Of a stretch of DNA of 64,000 nt, positions 18,185-23,109 are shown piece after piece. A program made the position numbers and the translations under genes. Each line of letters opens with the position of its first letter. Within the stretch, counting starts at the first letter, position 1. The DNA is from Patescibacteria group bacterium UBA6017 (lineage in GTDB: Bacteria > Patescibacteriota > Saccharimonadia > UBA4664), in assembly GCA_002429485.1 (NCBI GenBank), contig DIZX01000015.1, forward strand, positions 325,488 to 389,487, in the 5' to 3' direction. The notes under the pieces are model-generated. The model was given only the letters and a program-made list of their open reading frames with translations, did not search any database and was not told where the DNA came from.

Positions 18185-18260
18185 TGGTGGGCCCGGCAGG
18201 ATTTGAACCTGCGACCAAGCGGTTATGAGCCGCCTGCTCTAACCACTGAGCTACGGGCCC
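18185..18260 (-). tRNA. tRNA(CAU), probably tRNA-Ile2 (lysidine) given C4-G69/C5-G68 and near-identity to canonical Ile2
   Basis: Reverse complement gggcccgtagctcagtggttagagcaggcggctCATaaccgcttggtcgcaggttcaaatcctgccgggcccacca: cloverleaf with CAU anticodon. Confidence 0.8.
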
Positions 18261-18306: not shown

Positions 18307-18690
18307 ATGAAACTTCCAAAAATAAACCTCAACGCCAATAGTGCGCTCAATTTTGTTGGCGCGGTCATAATATTCTATCTGGTGGCCGTCCTGGGCCAGA
18401 CCGTAAAACACAATTATGACCTCGGCCGGCAGATCGATGATTTGAGGACTCAAATCATCGATCTGCAGGGTCAGAAAGAGCAGCTCGTCTACAGCATTGC
18501 ATATTACAATACCGACGCTTTTCGCGACCGCGAAGCTCGGGCCAGGCTTGGATTACAGCTCCCGGGTGAAAACGTGGTCATCATTCCCCACGCCAGCCCC
18601 GCTCCGAGTGCATCGACGCAGAGCAGTAAAACCTCCGTCAAGCACTCGAACCCTCAGCAGTGGTTTGATTTCCTAACCGGCCGAATCTAG
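18307..18690 (+). CDS. FtsB/DivIC-like septum formation initiator (TM + coiled coil)
   Basis: N-terminal TM followed by a heptad-like coiled coil (LGRQIDDLRTQIIDLQGQKEQL). Confidence 0.5.
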   Translation: MKLPKINLNANSALNFVGAVIIFYLVAVLGQTVKHNYDLGRQIDDLRTQIIDLQGQKEQLVYSIAYYNTDAFRDREARARLGLQLPGENVVIIPHASPAPSASTQSSKTSVKHSNPQQWFDFLTGRI

Positions 18691-19826
18691 CTCAGCGCTC
18701 GTGCGCGATTAGCCGCAATAACCATGCCGCCGATTGCCCAGATTGCCGTCGACAGGCCGAAAAATCCGCCAATCAAGGGCAGCCACGCCGCTAGCGCGAC
18801 TATCGGCACTCCAGCCAGGGCGGCGAGCGCCAGTCCGCGGCGATCATCATCCACTTGCTGCAGAATTAACCTGCCCACCGTCACTCCCGCAAACCCGGCC
18901 GAGGTCACCAGCGCCAGCACCCACAATGTACCAAGCACCAATGCTATCGGCAGGCCCACCACGGTTATCGCCAGAAATACCAAAACCATCGGGCCGGCGA
19001 TTACCGTCAGCGCTCCCCAGCCGATGCTAGCCGACCAGCGCGTGCGCATTGTGCCCGCCACACTGCCTATCAGCCTCGGCGCCAACCATATTGCCACCAG
19101 TACGCCCAGTAAGGTCGCCACTATCGAGTACAGCAGCGTGCCTAGCCGGTCGGCTACGGTCGTGCTCCGAGTTGCCGCCCGGACTGGTGCGTGCCTAGCT
19201 ACTTGCCCCTGAATTTTCGACTTATCGAGAGCAAATGTATTGTCGCTAGTGTAGTCCAGATTGCCCGTCACGGCAGCACCGCCTCCGAGGGTCAGAGTCT
19301 GCGCCTCCGCCGTAACGCTCCCGCCAACCGTAGAGTTGATCGCCAGTGTTCCGGCACCAGCATACACCGCTTGCCCCACAGAGCCGTTTAGAGTGGCCGT
19401 CTGCGCCCCCACAGCCACATCTCCGCCAACCTTAGCGTTGCTCCCCAATACAAGGTTCTGCGCCCCCACAGTGACGTTACGAGCCACATTGCCGTTGATG
19501 CTCACGATCTGGCCTCCTGCCCGGACACTCCCGCCTACCGGGCCGTTCACGGTCAGCGTCTGTGCGCCGCACAGTACGTCGCCGCCGACAGAGCCGTTAA
19601 TTACCACCGACTGTCCGGCGCACACCACGTCGCCAGTAACATTGCCGTCGACCGTAATCGTTTGCCCGGCTACGTAGTAATTTCCGGTCCGGTTGTCGCC
19701 CTTCGCCAGGGTTACATCCGTCGCGGCGCTCTGTGTGGCTGCTAACGCCACGGCCGGAACCGCCAGAGCCATAATTAAACCTAATAGAATACCGATTCTT
19801 CTCATTGCAGCTCTCCTTTTCGTCAA
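18687..19826 (-). CDS. secreted beta-helix-repeat (bactofilin/DUF583-like) protein with a C-terminal polytopic membrane anchor
   Basis: Signal peptide; more than 10 tandem roughly 18-aa repeats GxVxGDV/VxINGxV; 4-5 C-terminal TM helices. Confidence 0.55.
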   Translation of the reverse strand: MTKRRAAMRRIGILLGLIMALAVPAVALAATQSAATDVTLAKGDNRTGNYYVAGQTITVDGNVTGDVVCAGQSVVINGSVGGDVLCGAQTLTVNGPVGGSVRAGGQIVSINGNVARNVTVGAQNLVLGSNAKVGGDVAVGAQTATLNGSVGQAVYAGAGTLAINSTVGGSVTAEAQTLTLGGGAAVTGNLDYTSDNTFALDKSKIQGQVARHAPVRAATRSTTVADRLGTLLYSIVATLLGVLVAIWLAPRLIGSVAGTMRTRWSASIGWGALTVIAGPMVLVFLAITVVGLPIALVLGTLWVLALVTSAGFAGVTVGRLILQQVDDDRRGLALAALAGVPIVALAAWLPLIGGFFGLSTAIWAIGGMVIAANRARALS

Positions 19827-19900: not shown

Positions 19901-19976
19901 CGCGGGGTGGAGCAGCTGGCAGCTCGTTGGGCTCATAACCCAAAGGTCGTAGGTTCGAATCCTACCCCCGCTACCA
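19901..19976 (+). tRNA. initiator tRNA-fMet (CAU)
   Basis: cgcggggtggagcagc...ttgggctCATaacccaa...: C1 mismatch, three consecutive G-C pairs in the anticodon stem; near-identical to the canonical bacterial initiator. Confidence 0.85.
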
Positions 19977-20084
19977 AGAACTAATCCAAAATTGAGACGA
20001 GCGCTCCAGTGTGGGCGCCGTTTTAATTTATAGGTAGTAATTCTTGCCTTTTCTACCTCAAACTCTTACAATTTGTACTCGTAT

Positions 20085-20159
20085 GGCTGCGTAGCTCAGT
20101 GGTAGAGCAGGAGACTCATAAGCTCTTGGTCGGTAGTTCGAATCTACCCGTAGCCACCA
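20085..20159 (+). tRNA. elongator tRNA-Met (CAU)
   Basis: ggctgcgtagctcagtggtagagcaggagactCATaagctcttggtcggtagttcgaatctacccgtagccacca. Assigned as elongator Met because it lacks the C4/C5 TilS determinants; assignment versus Ile2 is inferential. Confidence 0.75.
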
Positions 20160-20164
20160 ATGAA

Positions 20165-20191
20165 AACACCCGACTTTCGTCGGGTTTTTTC
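20165..20191 (+). terminator. intrinsic terminator after the tRNA cluster
   Basis: acccgac-tttc-gtcgggt followed by tttttt. Confidence 0.8.
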
Positions 20192-20207
20192 ATTGCTAGG
20201 TTATGAG

Positions 20208-20282
20208 CCGGGTAGATGAGAACAGGTTAGTTCGGCGCAGCGGAGCGGAGAAGGCGCAGCCGCTATCTACCCGTAGCCACCA
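20208..20282 (+). repeat. duplicated 3' end of tRNA-Met (18/18 nt atctacccgtagccacca) within a long hairpin
   Basis: 20265-20282 is identical to tRNA-Met 20142-20159. ccgggtagat (20208-17) pairs with atctacccg, enclosing a 48-nt insert. att-site-like footprint. Confidence 0.6.
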
Positions 20283-20295
20283 TGCATTTATTAAT

Positions 20296-20325
20296 AAAGC
20301 ACCCGCCAGCTGGCGGGTGCTTTAT
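20296..20325. terminator. hairpin terminator downstream of the minus-strand gene 20343-20762
   Basis: gcacccgcc-agct-ggcgggtgc with flanking A/T runs. Confidence 0.6.
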
Positions 20326-20342: not shown

Positions 20343-20762
20343 CTAGCGGTAACGGATATCGGTCATGCCGACAACGTACTTGAAGTCTACTCCGGTATTA
20401 TTCGGGCCGGTGAATGTCACCATCACGCCGCCGGTGATGTTCTTCCCGACAGCAGTCCAGCCGGGGTCGGTGCAAATACCGCGCAGGGTGATCGAAGCGA
20501 GGGGGCCGTTTGTCGTGATCAACATTCGGACATGTCCGGCAGTAGGTAGTGGGTAGGTCTGCTCCTGCCCCCCAATAACGTCAGCGAAAATCCAGTCGGT
20601 GGCGCAGGGACCAATGTCGTTGACGTAGCTAGTAGCATTACTGCCGCCCGATGCCGACACCGTGCCGACGTTCAACGCCAACGGAGCCGCCAGCATGACC
20701 GATGCCAAGAGGGTTAATTTAATTCTAGATACGATATTGGTATGCAAGGTGCACGCCTCCAT
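20343..20762 (-). CDS. hypothetical secreted protein (139 aa)
   Basis: Clear signal peptide (LTLLASVMLAAPLALNVGTVSA), then Gly/Thr-rich beta-type composition. Confidence 0.5.
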   Translation of the reverse strand: MEACTLHTNIVSRIKLTLLASVMLAAPLALNVGTVSASGGSNATSYVNDIGPCATDWIFADVIGGQEQTYPLPTAGHVRMLITTNGPLASITLRGICTDPGWTAVGKNITGGVMVTFTGPNNTGVDFKYVVGMTDIRYR

Positions 20763-20832
20763 TAGTGTTTTATATCTGTACAGTGTGTAACGGACGAGGG
20801 AGGGGATTCGTTACAAAAGCGCAATTATTTAA

Positions 20833-20864
20833 CACAAAAACGGCCCCAAATAGGGCCGTTTTTG
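20833..20864. terminator. bidirectional intrinsic terminator
   Basis: aaaaacggcccc-aaatag-gggccgtttttg. Confidence 0.75.
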
Positions 20865-20988
20865 TGTCTTTATAAATGGGGGCTCTGCCTCAGCCAACCA
20901 GCCGGTGGTTGTTTAGCTAGGGTAGGGGTGGGGGTGGTAGCCGAAACTACCACCCCCGGGAACTGCTTGTGATGCCCGCGGGCGTCGG

Positions 20989-21954
20989 TCAGGCCGCGAT
21001 GAGGGCCATGAGTGATGTCAGCTTGATGGCTCCGTAGGCCTCGAGGACCTGTGGGCGGGGCCCGATGAGCCGAACCGTTGTGCCCGACGGCACGTACGAG
21101 AGCAGGCCGCCCTGACTCATCATCCACAACGACATGTTGTCGATCGCCGAGATGGAGTTGGCCTGCACCGACAGCGTGCTGAAGCGGTCCTGGTCGGCGA
21201 CGTAGCCGATCGTGCGGCCGATGAGCTGTGCCATCAGTCGACCGACCTCGACGGCGAACGGATCGCCGCTCTTGGCCAGAGTGCACAGGCGGGATACGAG
21301 CACCCTCCTGAGATGGCGGTCAGACGGGTGGTTGACCGCCGCCTCCATCATCATCGAAGTGCGCACATCCGGCGTGAGTCCGACTTCAGCGTTCGTCGCC
21401 TCGATGAACTGAGCAGCGTTGAGCCAGCCGAGGTTGCCGAGCAGCTCGATGGAGCTGTTGTTGGCCGGCGAGCCCACGAAGTTGGCGAACTCGGACGTCC
21501 GCGGGCTGAATCCAGCGATGACGTCCGCTTCCACGAACCGGTGTGTTCTGAGATCCCCGTCAACGGCCCAGCTAGTCCACTTGGGACCAATCTTGAGCAA
21601 CGCCTGAGGGAGCCCGCCGTCGTTGACGCCGCGCTGGATCAGAACCTGGGACTTGTCGCCCACGAGCTGGTATCCGGCGAGCGTTGCAGCCGTCGGGGAT
21701 ACAGCCTGAAGGTTCATGCCCTTGGGCACGGTGACCCGGTCGATGGTGTAGCCGTTGTGGTGCGAGATGCCGATGACTCGAGTTGAGAATCCAACCCATG
21801 GAAGGATCTCGTTCTCGATCGTGCCGATGACGGAGTTGTCCGGCAGGATGACGCCTGAGCGCTCCCGAGGTGCGCCGCGCGGGGGGATGACCACCGCGTG
21901 GTACTTCTCGTCACACACAGCAACGCCGACGCCGTGAAACTTGTTCTCAAGCAT
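20989..21954 (-). CDS. hypothetical protein (321 aa), higher GC than its surroundings; monocistronic with its own AT-rich promoter and terminators
   Basis: Long ORF of about 65% GC against about 58% locally. A perfect 11-bp hairpin (20930-20957) follows the stop. No recognisable motif. Confidence 0.5.
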   Translation of the reverse strand: MLENKFHGVGVAVCDEKYHAVVIPPRGAPRERSGVILPDNSVIGTIENEILPWVGFSTRVIGISHHNGYTIDRVTVPKGMNLQAVSPTAATLAGYQLVGDKSQVLIQRGVNDGGLPQALLKIGPKWTSWAVDGDLRTHRFVEADVIAGFSPRTSEFANFVGSPANNSSIELLGNLGWLNAAQFIEATNAEVGLTPDVRTSMMMEAAVNHPSDRHLRRVLVSRLCTLAKSGDPFAVEVGRLMAQLIGRTIGYVADQDRFSTLSVQANSISAIDNMSLWMMSQGGLLSYVPSGTTVRLIGPRPQVLEAYGAIKLTSLMALIAA

Positions 21955-22191
21955 GTGTCCTCCTAGGACTGGTTTTCGAACTGGTGGGTGCGGCGGATTG
22001 CCGCGTTCACAAGCAGATTGTCAAACTTCAGAATTATGGACTTCAGTTCATGAAGTTTGAATTAAGATTTCTAAATTATACTCATGTTTACTGGGTTGTC
22101 AATACTAATTATATGTGGTCTAGTAGTAATTTGGTGCTCCCTCAGTCTTCTTGCGACATCCTGACTAAGAATATCCGCTACAATATACGGC

Positions 22192-23109
22192 ATGGAAGAG
22201 CTCGATATTAATTGGCCGGCACCGGGAAAATACATCATCGCCGTCTCCGGCGGCGCCGATTCTATGGTGCTGCTCGATATATTTGCCTGTGCCAGCGCTC
22301 GCCGGTACGAGCTCATCGCCGCGCACGTGGACCACGGCCTGCGCCCCGAGTCTGCGTCCGATTCGGAATTTGTAGCTGCGGCCGCCGAACATTACGGCCT
22401 GCCGTTCGAACAGCTTTCGGCCGGACTCGGGCAGGCTAGCGAGGCCTCGGCACGAGCGGTGCGCCATGATTGGCTCGAGCAAACCCGCCAAAAATTCGGT
22501 GCCATCGCCGTACTCACCGCTCATCATCAGGACGACCTGCTCGAAACAAGCCTGCTAAACCTGGCCCGCGGCAGCGGACGGCTCGGTTTGGCCCCGATGG
22601 CCAGCAGCCCCACCATCCTCCGGCCCCTCATTAACCTCACCCGCGATGACCTCCGCCGCTACGCTTCCGAACACCAAATTGCGTGGCGCGAGGACCTCAC
22701 CAACGCCGATATCAGCAATCCCCGTAACTTTTTGCGCCACCAGCTCCTGCCCCGCGCCGACGCCAACTGGAGGGCTTCCTATCTGGAAAATGTCTCTCAG
22801 TTAGCAAAATTGAACAAAAAAGTTGATCAAAGCATAAGCACAATTCTGGAATCTGCTTACGTCCCGCCAAACACCTATTCATTTCCCGTTAATTACGTCC
22901 GCAACATGAATGACGGAGAGTTCGAGGAGATCATTCTCGCCGCGTCGAGACGCCTGCGTCCGGGAGTCCAGCTAGACAGGCGTCTCATTGTTGAGGCGGC
23001 CAATTTTGCGAAAACCGGCCTTCCCCGCAAATTTCGGCCACTCCGCCAAGACATCGTGATTAATATCGAATCAGACAGTATTTACCTCACTACAAATACC
23101 CCTCGGTAG
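22192..23109 (+). CDS. tilS: tRNA(Ile)-lysidine synthetase
   Basis: PP-loop SGGADS (IIAVSGGADSMVLLD); sits immediately upstream of ftsH as in many bacteria. Confidence 0.85.
   Translation: MEELDINWPAPGKYIIAVSGGADSMVLLDIFACASARRYELIAAHVDHGLRPESASDSEFVAAAAEHYGLPFEQLSAGLGQASEASARAVRHDWLEQTRQKFGAIAVLTAHHQDDLLETSLLNLARGSGRLGLAPMASSPTILRPLINLTRDDLRRYASEHQIAWREDLTNADISNPRNFLRHQLLPRADANWRASYLENVSQLAKLNKKVDQSISTILESAYVPPNTYSFPVNYVRNMNDGEFEEIILAASRRLRPGVQLDRRLIVEAANFAKTGLPRKFRPLRQDIVINIESDSIYLTTNTPR

What the first reader, a model, noticed from the sequence alone, without database searches (positions are those of the whole stretch)
20142..20282. Exact 18-nt duplication of the tRNA-Met 3' end, arranged as a split T-arm hairpin: an integration/excision footprint
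atctacccgtagccacca (20265-20282) repeats the last 18 nt of tRNA-Met (20142-20159) about 105 bp downstream. The upstream partner ccgggtagat (20208-17) pairs with the duplicate, recreating the tRNA T-stem with a 48-nt insert (itself holding a ggcgcagc direct repeat) where the T-loop should be. Duplications of a tRNA 3' end are the classic attL/attR scars of tRNA-targeting integrases. The two repeats are close together, which suggests an element was lost or that the adjacent island (20343-22190) arrived through this site.
Basis: seen in the sequence. Interest (0 to 1): 0.55.

Follow-up and report, generated by a model that had tools for sequence, protein, structure and literature searches.

The report
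RtT-like unit trailing tRNA-Met gene
The repeated 18 bases are the tail of a small hairpin-forming unit built from pieces of the neighbouring methionine tRNA gene; it has the same layout as the old, still unexplained 'RtT' repeats behind E. coli's tyrosine tRNA genes, recurs in many Saccharibacteria, and is more likely this kind of tRNA-trailing unit than the scar of a lost mobile element.

Summary
ATCTACCCGTAGCCACCA occurs exactly twice in the window, at the 3' end of elongator tRNA-Met and 105 nt downstream, and CGGGTAGAT pairs with the second copy. Three independent assemblies carry it. The genome is a Candidatus Saccharimonadia (CPR) MAG.

The duplicate is not a lone scar. It ends an ~88-nt unit made of an antisense T-arm copy, a sense T-arm 5' half, a GC-rich core and the tRNA's last 18 nt. 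A terminator follows the tRNA and another follows the unit. Eleven Saccharimonadia genomes carry a copy of their own tRNA-CAT 3' end downstream. Most share this layout, each with its own tRNA's sequence, and some share a conserved core.

E. coli's RtT units behind tyrT/tyrV (Rfam RF00391) have the same four-part layout. The window scores only 16 bits against that model, so it is an analogue by architecture, not a sequence-level member.

The window has no recombinase and no third repeat, and only 105 bp lie between the copies. The tRNA-tilS interval is nevertheless a real gene-turnover hotspot, and close relatives lack the unit. A miniature or decayed integrative element therefore remains a serious rival. 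Function is unknown.

The parts
19901..19976 (+). Initiator tRNA-fMet (CAT), with its own terminator at 20001-20018. It has no downstream copy of its 3' end.
   Evidence: ARAGORN and Rfam. C1 mismatch and GGG/CCC anticodon stem read from the sequence. Terminator scan.
20085..20159 (+). Elongator tRNA-Met (CAT), the donor of all tRNA-derived pieces of the unit. It is 100% identical in L008, L009, L011, L021 and L022.
20142..20159 (+). Y1: the last 18 nt of the tRNA (2 nt of the T-loop, T-stem 3' strand, acceptor 3' strand, discriminator, CCA).
20158..20195 (+). T1: intrinsic terminator of the tRNA, an extended hairpin CAATGAAAACACCCGAC/GTCGGGTTTTTTCATTG.
   Evidence: I7. Homologous terminators follow the tRNA in L008, L009, L011 and L019.
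20196..20282 (+). RtT-like unit as a whole. These are also the limits of the weak Rfam RtT match (20195-20282).
20209..20223 (+). Antisense T-arm copy: CGGGTAGAT (reverse complement of ATCTACCCG), then GA, then GAAC (reverse complement of the T-loop GTTC).
   Evidence: 14/24 match to the reverse-complemented T-arm, p=0.04 against shuffles. The same segment is GGGGAAGGATGAGAAC... in E. coli RtT.
20228..20234 (+). Sense copy of the T-arm 5' half (TAGTTCG = tRNA positions 50-56). GTTC pairs with GAAC to form the inner helix.
20235..20264 (+). GC-rich core with the GGCGCAGC direct repeat. It ends in CGCAGCC, the reverse complement of the tRNA 5' acceptor strand. L009 has a 45-nt longer core.
20265..20282 (+). 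Y2: exact second copy of the tRNA's last 18 nt. Its first 9 nt form the outer helix with 20209-20217.
20294..20325 (.). T2: perfect 16+16 palindromic terminator after the unit, also serving convergent ORF139. It aligns with T1 and with the single terminators of relatives.
   Evidence: (I9).
20343..20762 (-). ORF139, a small secreted-looking orphan protein. It is variable content, not part of the unit.
   Evidence: Absent from L008, L009 and L011.
20989..21954 (-). ORF321, an orphan protein. It is variable content, not part of the unit.
   Evidence: No Pfam, PHROG or NCBIfam hit. Only 2 homologues among 5.8 billion proteins.
22192..23109 (+). tilS, the conserved right-hand anchor of the variable interval.

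Best explanation
The second 18-mer is the 3' end of an ~88-nt 'RtT-like' tRNA-trailing unit. Read 5' to 3' on the tRNA strand, the unit holds an antisense copy of the tRNA-Met T-arm, a sense copy of the T-arm 5' half, a GC-rich core sitting where the T-loop would be, and the tRNA's own last 18 nt including CCA. Its own terminator follows. The antisense and sense pieces pair, so the unit folds as a long hairpin or three-way junction that leaves a tRNA-identical NCCA tail.

Shown here: the anatomy; its recurrence next to tRNA-CAT genes in 11 Saccharimonadia genomes, each with its own tRNA's sequences; a conserved core shared between units attached to different tRNAs; and the same four-part anatomy in E. 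coli RtT units.

Inferred: the unit arose at the DNA level by duplication of the 3' part of the tRNA gene together with its terminator, and not by loss of a large integrated element. Where it acts at all, it acts as RNA made by read-through from the tRNA promoter and is trimmed at its tRNA-like 3' end by the tRNA 3'-maturation enzymes. It would then be a T-arm/3'-end mimic or processing cassette, as has been suggested for E. coli rtT RNA. The cellular function is not established for any member of this class.
For: (1) Anatomy. Exact Y1/Y2 copies. The 9-nt exact reverse complement plus GAAC/GTTC inner helix. 14/24 antisense T-arm match, p=0.04.
(2) An orthologous unit sits at the same place in L009. 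It aligns from T1 through about 20 nt past Y2, carries a 45-nt core indel, and keeps 15/15 of Y.
(3) Recurrence. Among 94 tRNA-CAT genes in about 80 genomes, 11 genomes carry a copy of their own tRNA's 3' 15-18 nt 74-258 nt downstream (1 kb in L045). None carries one upstream. Antisense T-arm copies are significant in L048, L070, L081 and L093 (17-19/24, p<=0.0005) and in L009 (p=0.012).
(4) A shared core, CGCA followed by a 4-bp stem with a CNNG loop and then GAG. Three different Watson-Crick stems occur (GCUG/CAGC, GGUG/CACC, GAAG/CUUC). The core is shared by units attached to initiator tRNAs, to elongator tRNAs and to a third kind of CAT tRNA; in L058 it sits in the anticodon loop of the partial copy.
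(5) E. coli K-12 tyrT/tyrV. All four RF00391 units read GGGGAAGGAT-GA-GAAGCTTCG (19/24 antisense T-arm), then AAGGTTCGA (sense half), then core, then AATCCTTCCCCCACCACCA (the last 19 nt of tRNA-Tyr). The Rfam consensus outer helix is the same 'split T-stem' pairing. Rfam RtT was also the one family whose weak hit (16.1 bits) spanned the unit exactly, 20195-20282.
(6) In the antisense/sense helices, non-Watson-Crick positions are G.T 14 times and A.C 3 times on the tRNA-sense strand. That asymmetry is expected for RNA-level constraint.
(7) No recombinase family hit anywhere in the window, and only 105 bp between the repeats.
Against: The sequence-level link to RF00391 fails. The window scores 16.1 bits against a gathering score of 45 (E 0.73), the hit was not reproduced on a narrower slice, and L009 and L071 give no hit.

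A covariance model built from window plus L009 does not find E. coli or the other Saccharimonadia units. The common anatomy could therefore be convergent.

The hairpin is not more stable than shuffled sequence (z -1.2).

A strong terminator separates the tRNA from the unit and no promoter is evident, so transcription is unproven.

The conservation between window and L009 is no higher than background intergenic identity between these genomes (80-92%), so it does not show selection.

Close relatives L008 and L011 lack the unit, as would be expected for a mobile or unstable element.

The G.T/A.C asymmetry rests on 17 positions and weakens to 10:3 if the window's poorly aligned inner segment is dropped.
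Confidence: 0.55

Rival explanations
1. Integration footprint or miniature integrative element. A circular element carrying the tRNA's 3' end (Y) plus a terminator recombined with the tRNA gene at the T-loop in Campbell fashion. This left tRNA-Y1-T1-(element arm)-Y2-T2. The element is either non-autonomous (CIME-like, mobilised in trans) or has been reduced to 105 bp by deletion. The conserved core and antisense T-arm would then be recombinase-binding arm sequences.
For: The identity block begins in the T-loop here, and in the T-loop or the anticodon loop in other lineages; these are the two canonical integrase sublocations (Williams 2002, own knowledge). Y2 is perfect while the antisense and sense T-arm pieces are imperfect, as expected if Y2 is host DNA and the arms are element DNA. 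The unit is present in window and L009 but absent in L008 and L011, although these genomes are 80-94% identical in neighbouring intergenic DNA. The terminators of L008 and L011 share their flanks with T2, so T2 could be the ancestral flank, as the Campbell geometry requires. L045 has a 1-kb EamA gene between the tRNA and a 42-nt copy of the tRNA's 3' half. Large serine recombinase genes abut elongator tRNA-Met in L028, L033 and L035. The tRNA-tilS interval is a gene-turnover hotspot.
Against: No recombinase in 64 kb. The Y-to-Y unit is 123 bp, too small for an autonomous element, and it is similarly small (90-340 nt) in ten independent lineages. In the putative attP the T-arm 5' half and Y are separated by a 30-150-nt core, unlike any core-type site arrangement I know of. 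No third repeat bounds ORF139/ORF321. The empty-site junction, the window-type arm motif and the Y 18/19-mers were not found in metagenome or viral collections. E. coli RtT units with the same anatomy are tandem 178-bp repeats with no associated integrase. The stem of T1, not of T2, matches the relatives' terminators.
Confidence: 0.3
2. Functionless relic. The unit is a decaying partial tandem duplicate of the tRNA-Met gene (3' part plus terminator) produced by replication slippage or unequal exchange, with later template-switch rearrangement creating the inverted T-arm piece. It has no role as RNA or as a recombination site.
For: T1 and T2 are alignable paralogues. The fold energy is not unusual. 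No promoter is evident. Conservation between window and L009 is at background level. Some lineages (L037, L067) lack a significant antisense T-arm.
Against: Neutral decay does not explain the sharp boundary of perfect identity (18/18) next to unrecognisable sequence. It does not explain why the same four-part order recurs in many lineages and in E. coli. It does not explain a core motif shared between units attached to different tRNAs and carrying compensatory stem changes, nor the G.T over A.C excess.
Confidence: 0.12
3. Primer-binding site. On the minus strand, 20265-20282 reads TGGTGGCTACGGGTAGAT, complementary to the 3' 18 nt of tRNA-Met, as in the primer-binding sites of retroelements that use tRNA primers.
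For: The 18-nt length and the inclusion of CCA match the retroviral and LTR-element convention (own knowledge).
Against: No reverse transcriptase or retroelement features in the window. The minus-strand transcript of ORF321/ORF139 should stop at terminator 20294-20325 before reaching the site. In L009 and L081 the copy lacks CCA.
Confidence: 0.02

Closest known systems
RtT RNA / rttR repeat units of the E. coli tyrT-tyrV operon (Rfam RF00391; Bosl & Kersten 1991 NAR 19:5863, as cited in PMC3318445 and PMC11623569; 178-bp repeats carrying the last 19 nt of tRNA-Tyr, Rossi et al. 1981, own knowledge)
   Same: The unit lies directly downstream of a tRNA gene on the same strand. It ends with an exact copy of that tRNA's last 18-19 nt, starting in the T-loop and including CCA. 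It begins with an antisense copy of the T-arm whose 5' part pairs with the T-stem 3' copy, which is the outer helix of the Rfam consensus. A '...AT-GA-GAAC' junction follows, then a sense copy of the T-arm 5' half, then a GC-rich hairpin core. The function is unresolved in both.
   Different: The donor is tRNA-Met, and in other lineages initiator tRNA, not tRNA-Tyr. The host is a CPR bacterium, not Enterobacteria. The unit is single and 88 nt long, not 3.14 tandem 178-bp units with a 130-nt model. A terminator sits between the tRNA and the unit. The RF00391 score is 16 bits against a threshold of 45, and relatives do not score at all. There is no tpr-like ORF.
attL/attR direct repeats of tRNA-targeting integrative elements (T-loop and anticodon-loop sublocations, Williams 2002, own knowledge; ssrA 3'-end repeats bounding Dehalococcoides islands, PMC3146451; Ms6 attP/attB in the tRNA-Ala T-loop, PMC1762012)
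   Same: An exact direct repeat of the tRNA 3' end that starts in the T-loop. The neighbouring gene content is variable. Presence or absence differs among relatives.
   Different: There is no integrase, no cargo between the repeats and no repeat at the far end of the variable genes. A structured antisense T-arm plus core precedes the distal repeat. The same small size is found in many lineages.
CIMEs (cis-mobilisable elements: att-flanked remnants of ICEs lacking recombination genes; own knowledge)
   Same: A small att-like-flanked segment without its own recombinase.
   Different: CIMEs are kilobases long and lie next to a related ICE. No such partner was seen here.
Partial tRNA genes and tRNA pseudogene fragments next to tRNA genes
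   Same: The unit is made largely of pieces of the adjacent tRNA (the R1 model also matches true T-arms with the core deleted).
   Different: The pieces have a fixed order and mixed orientation and are interrupted by a core conserved across lineages. They are not a collinear decayed copy.

Membership tests
RtT RNA (Rfam RF00391) | Scores at or above the family's gathering score (45 bits) with the Rfam covariance model | tested here: not met
   Window 20195-20282(+) scores 16.1 bits, E 0.73, and the hit is absent when a narrower slice is searched. L071 and L009 give no hit at E<=10. The E. coli units score 133-138 bits.
RtT RNA (Rfam RF00391) | Lies immediately downstream of a tRNA gene, on the same strand | tested here: met
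   The unit at 20196-20282 follows tRNA-Met 20085-20159 and its terminator.
RtT RNA (Rfam RF00391) | 3' end is an exact copy of the last ~19 nt of the upstream tRNA, including CCA | tested here: met
   18/18 nt here. E. coli has 19/19 in four units.
RtT RNA (Rfam RF00391) | Outer helix formed by a 5' segment antisense to the T-arm and the T-stem 3' copy, followed by a sense T-arm 5' half | tested here: met
   9-bp exact pairing between 20209-17 and 20265-73. Antisense T-arm 14/24, p=0.04, against E. coli 19/24. TAGTTCG sense copy. The Rfam consensus structure is shown.
RtT RNA (Rfam RF00391) | Tandem repetition of the unit | tested here: not met
   Only two copies of the 18-mer exist in 64 kb, giving a single unit.
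RtT RNA (Rfam RF00391) | Released as a stable RNA from the tRNA operon transcript | not testable with these tools
   No expression data are available. A terminator (20158-20195) lies between the tRNA and the unit.
att scar of a tRNA-targeting integrase island | Direct repeat of the tRNA 3' end starting at a canonical crossover sublocation (T-loop or anticodon loop) | tested here: met
   Identity starts at the last 2 nt of the T-loop.
att scar of a tRNA-targeting integrase island | Integrase or recombinase gene inside or next to the repeat-bounded segment | tested here: not met
   Only 105 bp lie between the repeats. There is no Phage_integrase, Resolvase or Recombinase hit among the called genes and long ORFs of the whole window.
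att scar of a tRNA-targeting integrase island | Foreign cargo bounded on both sides by the repeat | tested here: not met
   The variable genes at 20343-21954 lie outside the repeat pair, and no further copy exists at up to 3 mismatches.
att scar of a tRNA-targeting integrase island | Empty site (tRNA joined directly to the distal flank) or an attP-bearing element found elsewhere | tested here: inconclusive
   The junction 35-mer is absent from metagenome contigs, but that collection did not return the window's own contigs either. The Y 18/19-mers and the arm motif are absent from viral contigs. L008 and L011 lack the unit, but which terminator is ancestral is ambiguous.

The most novel reading that the evidence does not exclude
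RtT-like units form a widespread class, present from CPR to Proteobacteria, with a constant structured core and 'programmable' arms. The arms are re-templated on whichever tRNA they sit behind (elongator Met, initiator Met, Tyr; inserted at the T-loop or the anticodon loop). Two mechanisms could produce this. The unit could be a functional RNA that mimics or sequesters the T-arm and 3' end of its cognate tRNA, in processing, stringent-response or anti-nuclease decoy roles. Alternatively it could be a small mobile element that copies its target's flanks when it inserts into tRNA hairpin loops.
Probability: 0.25. Interest if true: 0.75.

Novelty: new variant of a known kind. Interest (0 to 1): 0.5.

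Why it matters
E. coli's RtT repeats have been an unexplained curiosity since 1981 and are catalogued only for enterobacteria. The same four-part, tRNA-templated anatomy turns up behind methionine tRNA genes in an unrelated, ultra-small-genome phylum, with a core shared between units attached to different tRNAs. That suggests a general process or function tied to tRNA genes, not a local accident. It also provides many independent examples on which covariation, expression and mobility can be tested. On the practical side, short duplicated tRNA 3' ends should not automatically be scored as island boundaries by att-based island finders.

Tried and rejected
(1) Chance or assembly artefact. Rejected by the shuffle test and by three independent assemblies.

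(2) Known RNA family at curated thresholds. None was found apart from the tRNAs. Relaxed scans gave only terminator-like noise plus the weak RtT hit.

(3) Searching for an attP or a full element:
- The window-type arm motif gave 0 hits in viral contigs, and the 5 hits in metagenome contigs were all chance matches in coding DNA.
- The core 17-mer gave 8 viral hits. Seven were coding chance matches. One was an unexplained non-coding match on an IncFII-RepA/P2-like contig.
- The Y 18/19-mers gave 0 hits in viral contigs.
- The empty-site junction gave 0 hits.

(4) I first argued that the terminator directly after the tRNA is ancestral and that this excludes Campbell geometry. I withdrew this after aligning all the terminators: T1 and T2 are paralogous, and the relatives' terminators share features with both.

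(5) I first read the window-L009 conservation as purifying selection. I withdrew this after measuring 80-92% identity in other intergenic regions.

(6) A covariance model built from window plus L009 found only those two units and the true T-arms, so it could not demonstrate homology with E. coli or with the L070-type units.

(7) An nhmmer profile of the L070-type core found no further copies in the loci held.

(8) ORF139 and ORF321 as phage or defence cargo. No PHROG, NCBIfam or Pfam hits. ORF321 has only two homologues anywhere.

(9) I considered tmRNA, a group I intron in the tRNA, integron attC, IS200/IS605 ends, and IS110 bridge-RNA or TnpB guide-RNA readings. None has its defining protein or RNA features present.

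Full report
**Observation**

The window has three CAT-anticodon tRNA genes within 2 kb, next to divIC and tilS. They are a tRNA-Ile2-like gene at 18185-18260(-), the initiator at 19901-19976(+) and the elongator tRNA-Met at 20085-20159(+).

The elongator's last 18 nt, ATCTACCCGTAGCCACCA (20142-20159), recur exactly at 20265-20282. No other copy exists in 64 kb even at 3 mismatches, and no shuffle reached two copies. CGGGTAGAT (20209-20217) is the exact reverse complement of the first 9 nt of the second copy. RNAfold pairs them, adds GGUUA/UAGCC and leaves ACCA free, but the energy is ordinary (z -1.2).

The same sequence is present in three independent assemblies, so it is not an artefact. The organism is a Candidatus Saccharimonadia (CPR) MAG.

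**Local layout**

The order is tRNA-Met, then an extended intrinsic terminator T1 (20158-20195), then the 87-nt piece ending in the second 18-mer, then a perfect palindromic terminator T2 (20294-20325). After that come ORF139(-), another terminator (20832-20867), ORF321(-) and tilS(+).

The piece itself is made of tRNA-derived segments:
- an antisense T-arm copy (CGGGTAGAT-GA-GAAC);
- a sense T-arm 5' half (TAGTTCG);
- a GC-rich core with a GGCGCAGC repeat, ending in CGCAGCC, the reverse complement of the 5' acceptor strand;
- the 18-mer.

**Close relatives**

TilS homologues gave syntenic loci. The elongator tRNA is 100% identical in all of them. The tRNA-tilS interval, by contrast, differs in every close relative:
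- The window has ORF139 and ORF321.
- L008 has a roughly 470-nt promoter-to-terminator element with 13-bp inverted ends.
- L009 has a longer version of that element plus a 5-FTHF cyclo-ligase gene and an unrelated 304-aa gene.
- L011 has only the cyclo-ligase gene.

ORF321 has only two homologues among 5.8 billion proteins.

L009 carries an orthologous copy of the unit at the same position: GGGTAGATGCGAAC...AGTTCGG...core with 45 extra nt...ATCTACCCGTAGCCA. It aligns with the window from T1 to about 20 nt beyond the second copy. L008 and L011 lack the unit.

These genomes are 80-92% identical in other intergenic regions. The window-L009 conservation therefore says nothing about selection.

**Recurrence**

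I scanned all 94 tRNA-CAT genes in the roughly 80 Saccharimonadia loci. Eleven genomes carry a copy of their own tRNA's last 15-18 nt downstream on the same strand, 74-258 nt away (1 kb in L045, with an EamA gene in between). None carries a copy upstream. Every copy matches its own tRNA's sequence, and the donors include initiator as well as elongator tRNAs.

The layout is the same in most of them: terminator, antisense T-arm, a 4-30-nt loop, sense T-arm 5' half, a 30-150-nt core, the 3'-end copy, and often a second terminator.

Antisense T-arm matches are significant against shuffles in L048, L070, L081 and L093 (17-19/24), in L009 (15/24) and marginally in the window (14/24). They are not significant in L037, L067 or (ungapped) L071.

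Five units share a core motif, GGAGCAARG...CGCA-(4-bp stem, CNNG loop)-GAG. Three different Watson-Crick stems occur in it. The units carrying it are attached to different tRNA types. In L058 the same core sits in the anticodon loop of a partial tRNA copy.

**Link to a known family**

A relaxed Rfam scan gave a weak hit of RF00391 (RtT) spanning 20195-20282 exactly, at 16.1 bits against a gathering score of 45. I then read the E. coli K-12 tyrT-tyrV-rttR region.

Each of its four RtT units reads GGGGAAGGAT-GA-GAAGCTTCG, then ACCA, then AAGGTTCGA, then a GC-rich hairpin core, then AATCCTTCCCCCACCACCA. That is an antisense tRNA-Tyr T-arm (19/24), a sense T-arm 5' half, a core, and the last 19 nt of tRNA-Tyr.

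The anatomy is therefore shared, down to the AT-GA-GAAC junction; the GAAC is simply the complement of the universal T-loop GTTC. Sequence-level membership is not shown:
- the Rfam hit is far below threshold and was not reproduced on a narrower slice;
- L009 and L071 give no hit;
- a covariance model from window plus L009 finds only those two units and the true T-arms.

I therefore call the unit an RtT-like analogue, not an RF00391 member.

**Integration scar or not**

In favour of a scar:
- the identity starts at a canonical crossover position;
- Y2 is perfect while the arms are imperfect;
- the unit is present in some close relatives and absent in others;
- the interval is a gene-turnover hotspot;
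- L045 has a genuine islet between its repeats;
- large serine recombinase genes abut elongator tRNA-Met in L028, L033 and L035.

Against a scar:
- no recombinase family hit anywhere in the window;
- only 105 bp between the repeats, and similarly small units in ten lineages;
- no third repeat around ORF139/ORF321;
- the T-arm half and Y are separated by a structured core, unlike any att core I know;
- searches for an empty site, an attP or viral copies found nothing;
- the E. coli units with the same anatomy are tandem repeats with no integrase.

My first geometric argument, that T1 is ancestral and the copy therefore lies outside the tRNA unit, did not survive. T1 and T2 are alignable paralogues, and the single terminators of L008, L011 and L019 share the stem with T1 and the flanks with T2. 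In-situ duplication of 'tRNA 3' part plus terminator' and Campbell-type insertion of a small circle give the same product and cannot be told apart here.

**RNA or DNA**

In the antisense/sense T-arm helices of six Saccharimonadia units, the non-Watson-Crick positions are G.T 14 times and A.C 3 times on the tRNA-sense strand. The binomial probability is about 0.006, or about 0.05 if the window's poorly aligned inner segment is dropped. This hints at RNA-level constraint on that strand. Against it stand the intervening terminator, the lack of a recognisable promoter and the ordinary fold energy.

E. coli rtT is a processed RNA of the tyrT operon with a suggested link to the stringent response (Bosl & Kersten 1991, as cited in PMC3318445 and in bioRxiv 10.1101/2024.07.17.603846). 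Its mode of action is described there as still unknown.

**Verdict**

The duplication is real. It belongs to a recurrent, tRNA-templated, hairpin-forming trailer unit whose closest known relative by anatomy is the E. coli RtT repeat. I put about 0.55 on this reading, which includes origin by local duplication and probable action as a read-through RNA with a tRNA-like 3' end. I put about 0.3 on a miniature or decayed integrative element, about 0.12 on a functionless relic, and very little on a primer-binding site.

It is a new variant of a known but unexplained kind, in a new phylum and on new tRNAs. Interest is moderate, and would be higher if the 'constant core, re-templated arms' pattern proves to be a general mechanism.

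Noticed in passing
L008:5290-5895; L009:3360-4095; L110:1100-1960(-); shared terminator at window 20832-20867: In relatives, between tRNA-Met and tilS, a TTGACA/TATAAT-like promoter precedes a 470-770-nt element. It is closed by a perfect 13-bp inverted pair CAAGTAAGAGAGT...ACTCTCTTACTTG, has a conserved 5' hairpin and an internal GGAGG-ATG, and is followed by the terminator AAACGGCCCC..GGGGCCGTTT, which the window also has. There is no Rfam hit at E<=0.1. It could be a large structured RNA, a leader plus small ORF, or a TIR-bounded element.
   Followed up: partly
L028:2105-3679, L033:2090-3637, L035:3247-4818: Large serine recombinase genes (Resolvase plus Recombinase domains) run convergently into elongator tRNA-Met. 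Their reading frames overlap the tRNA's 3' 41 nt in antisense and stop in the anticodon loop. These look like real integrative elements at tRNA-Met in Saccharimonadales, and their far ends lie outside the loci held.
   Followed up: partly
L045:2364-3458: A 1-kb segment with a single EamA-family transporter gene lies between a tRNA-CAT gene and a diverged 42-nt copy of a tRNA 3' half (anticodon loop to CCA). The copy resembles another lineage's tRNA allele. This is a classical small islet.
   Followed up: partly
L005 (GCA_002413465.1, DHWZ01000028.1) 1-1400: A public MAG contig with an identical TilS carries ORF321 truncated to 279 aa and joined to unrelated high-GC DNA. This is probably a chimeric assembly and not biological variation.
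   Followed up: partly
L095:320-440 (IMGVR_UViG_3300024581_002713): A viral or phage-plasmid contig (IncFII RepA, P2-like tail genes) has, in non-coding DNA downstream of repA, GGTGCGG-CCCGCAGGTGCTTGCACCGAGGA...GACGAAGTCCTGCC. This resembles the L048 unit's core and the start of its 3'-end copy. It may be coincidence, because the hit was seeded by a 17-mer.
   Followed up: partly
window 18185-18260(-), 19901-19976, 20085-20159, 22192-23109: All three kinds of CAT tRNA (Ile2-like, initiator, elongator) are clustered beside tilS, the enzyme that modifies the Ile2 one. This arrangement is conserved across the Saccharimonadia loci examined.
   Followed up: no
window 18687-19826(-): A 379-aa membrane protein (weak DUF8173 hit) has an internal ~51-nt / 17-aa periodic repeat (GxVxGDV-like, bactofilin or beta-helix flavour). 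It is conserved next to divIC in relatives.
   Followed up: no
window 20989-21954(-): ORF321 is an extreme orphan, with only two homologues (99% and 73% identity) among 5.8 billion clustered proteins, both from the same narrow lineage.
   Followed up: yes
L109 (E. coli K-12 1286000-1288200): The RtT core contains TCGAGCGCCAGCGAGAG, which resembles the tRNA-Tyr D-arm CCGAGCGGCCAAAGGGAG. RtT units may therefore hold more scrambled tRNA pieces than the T-arm and 3' end.
   Followed up: no
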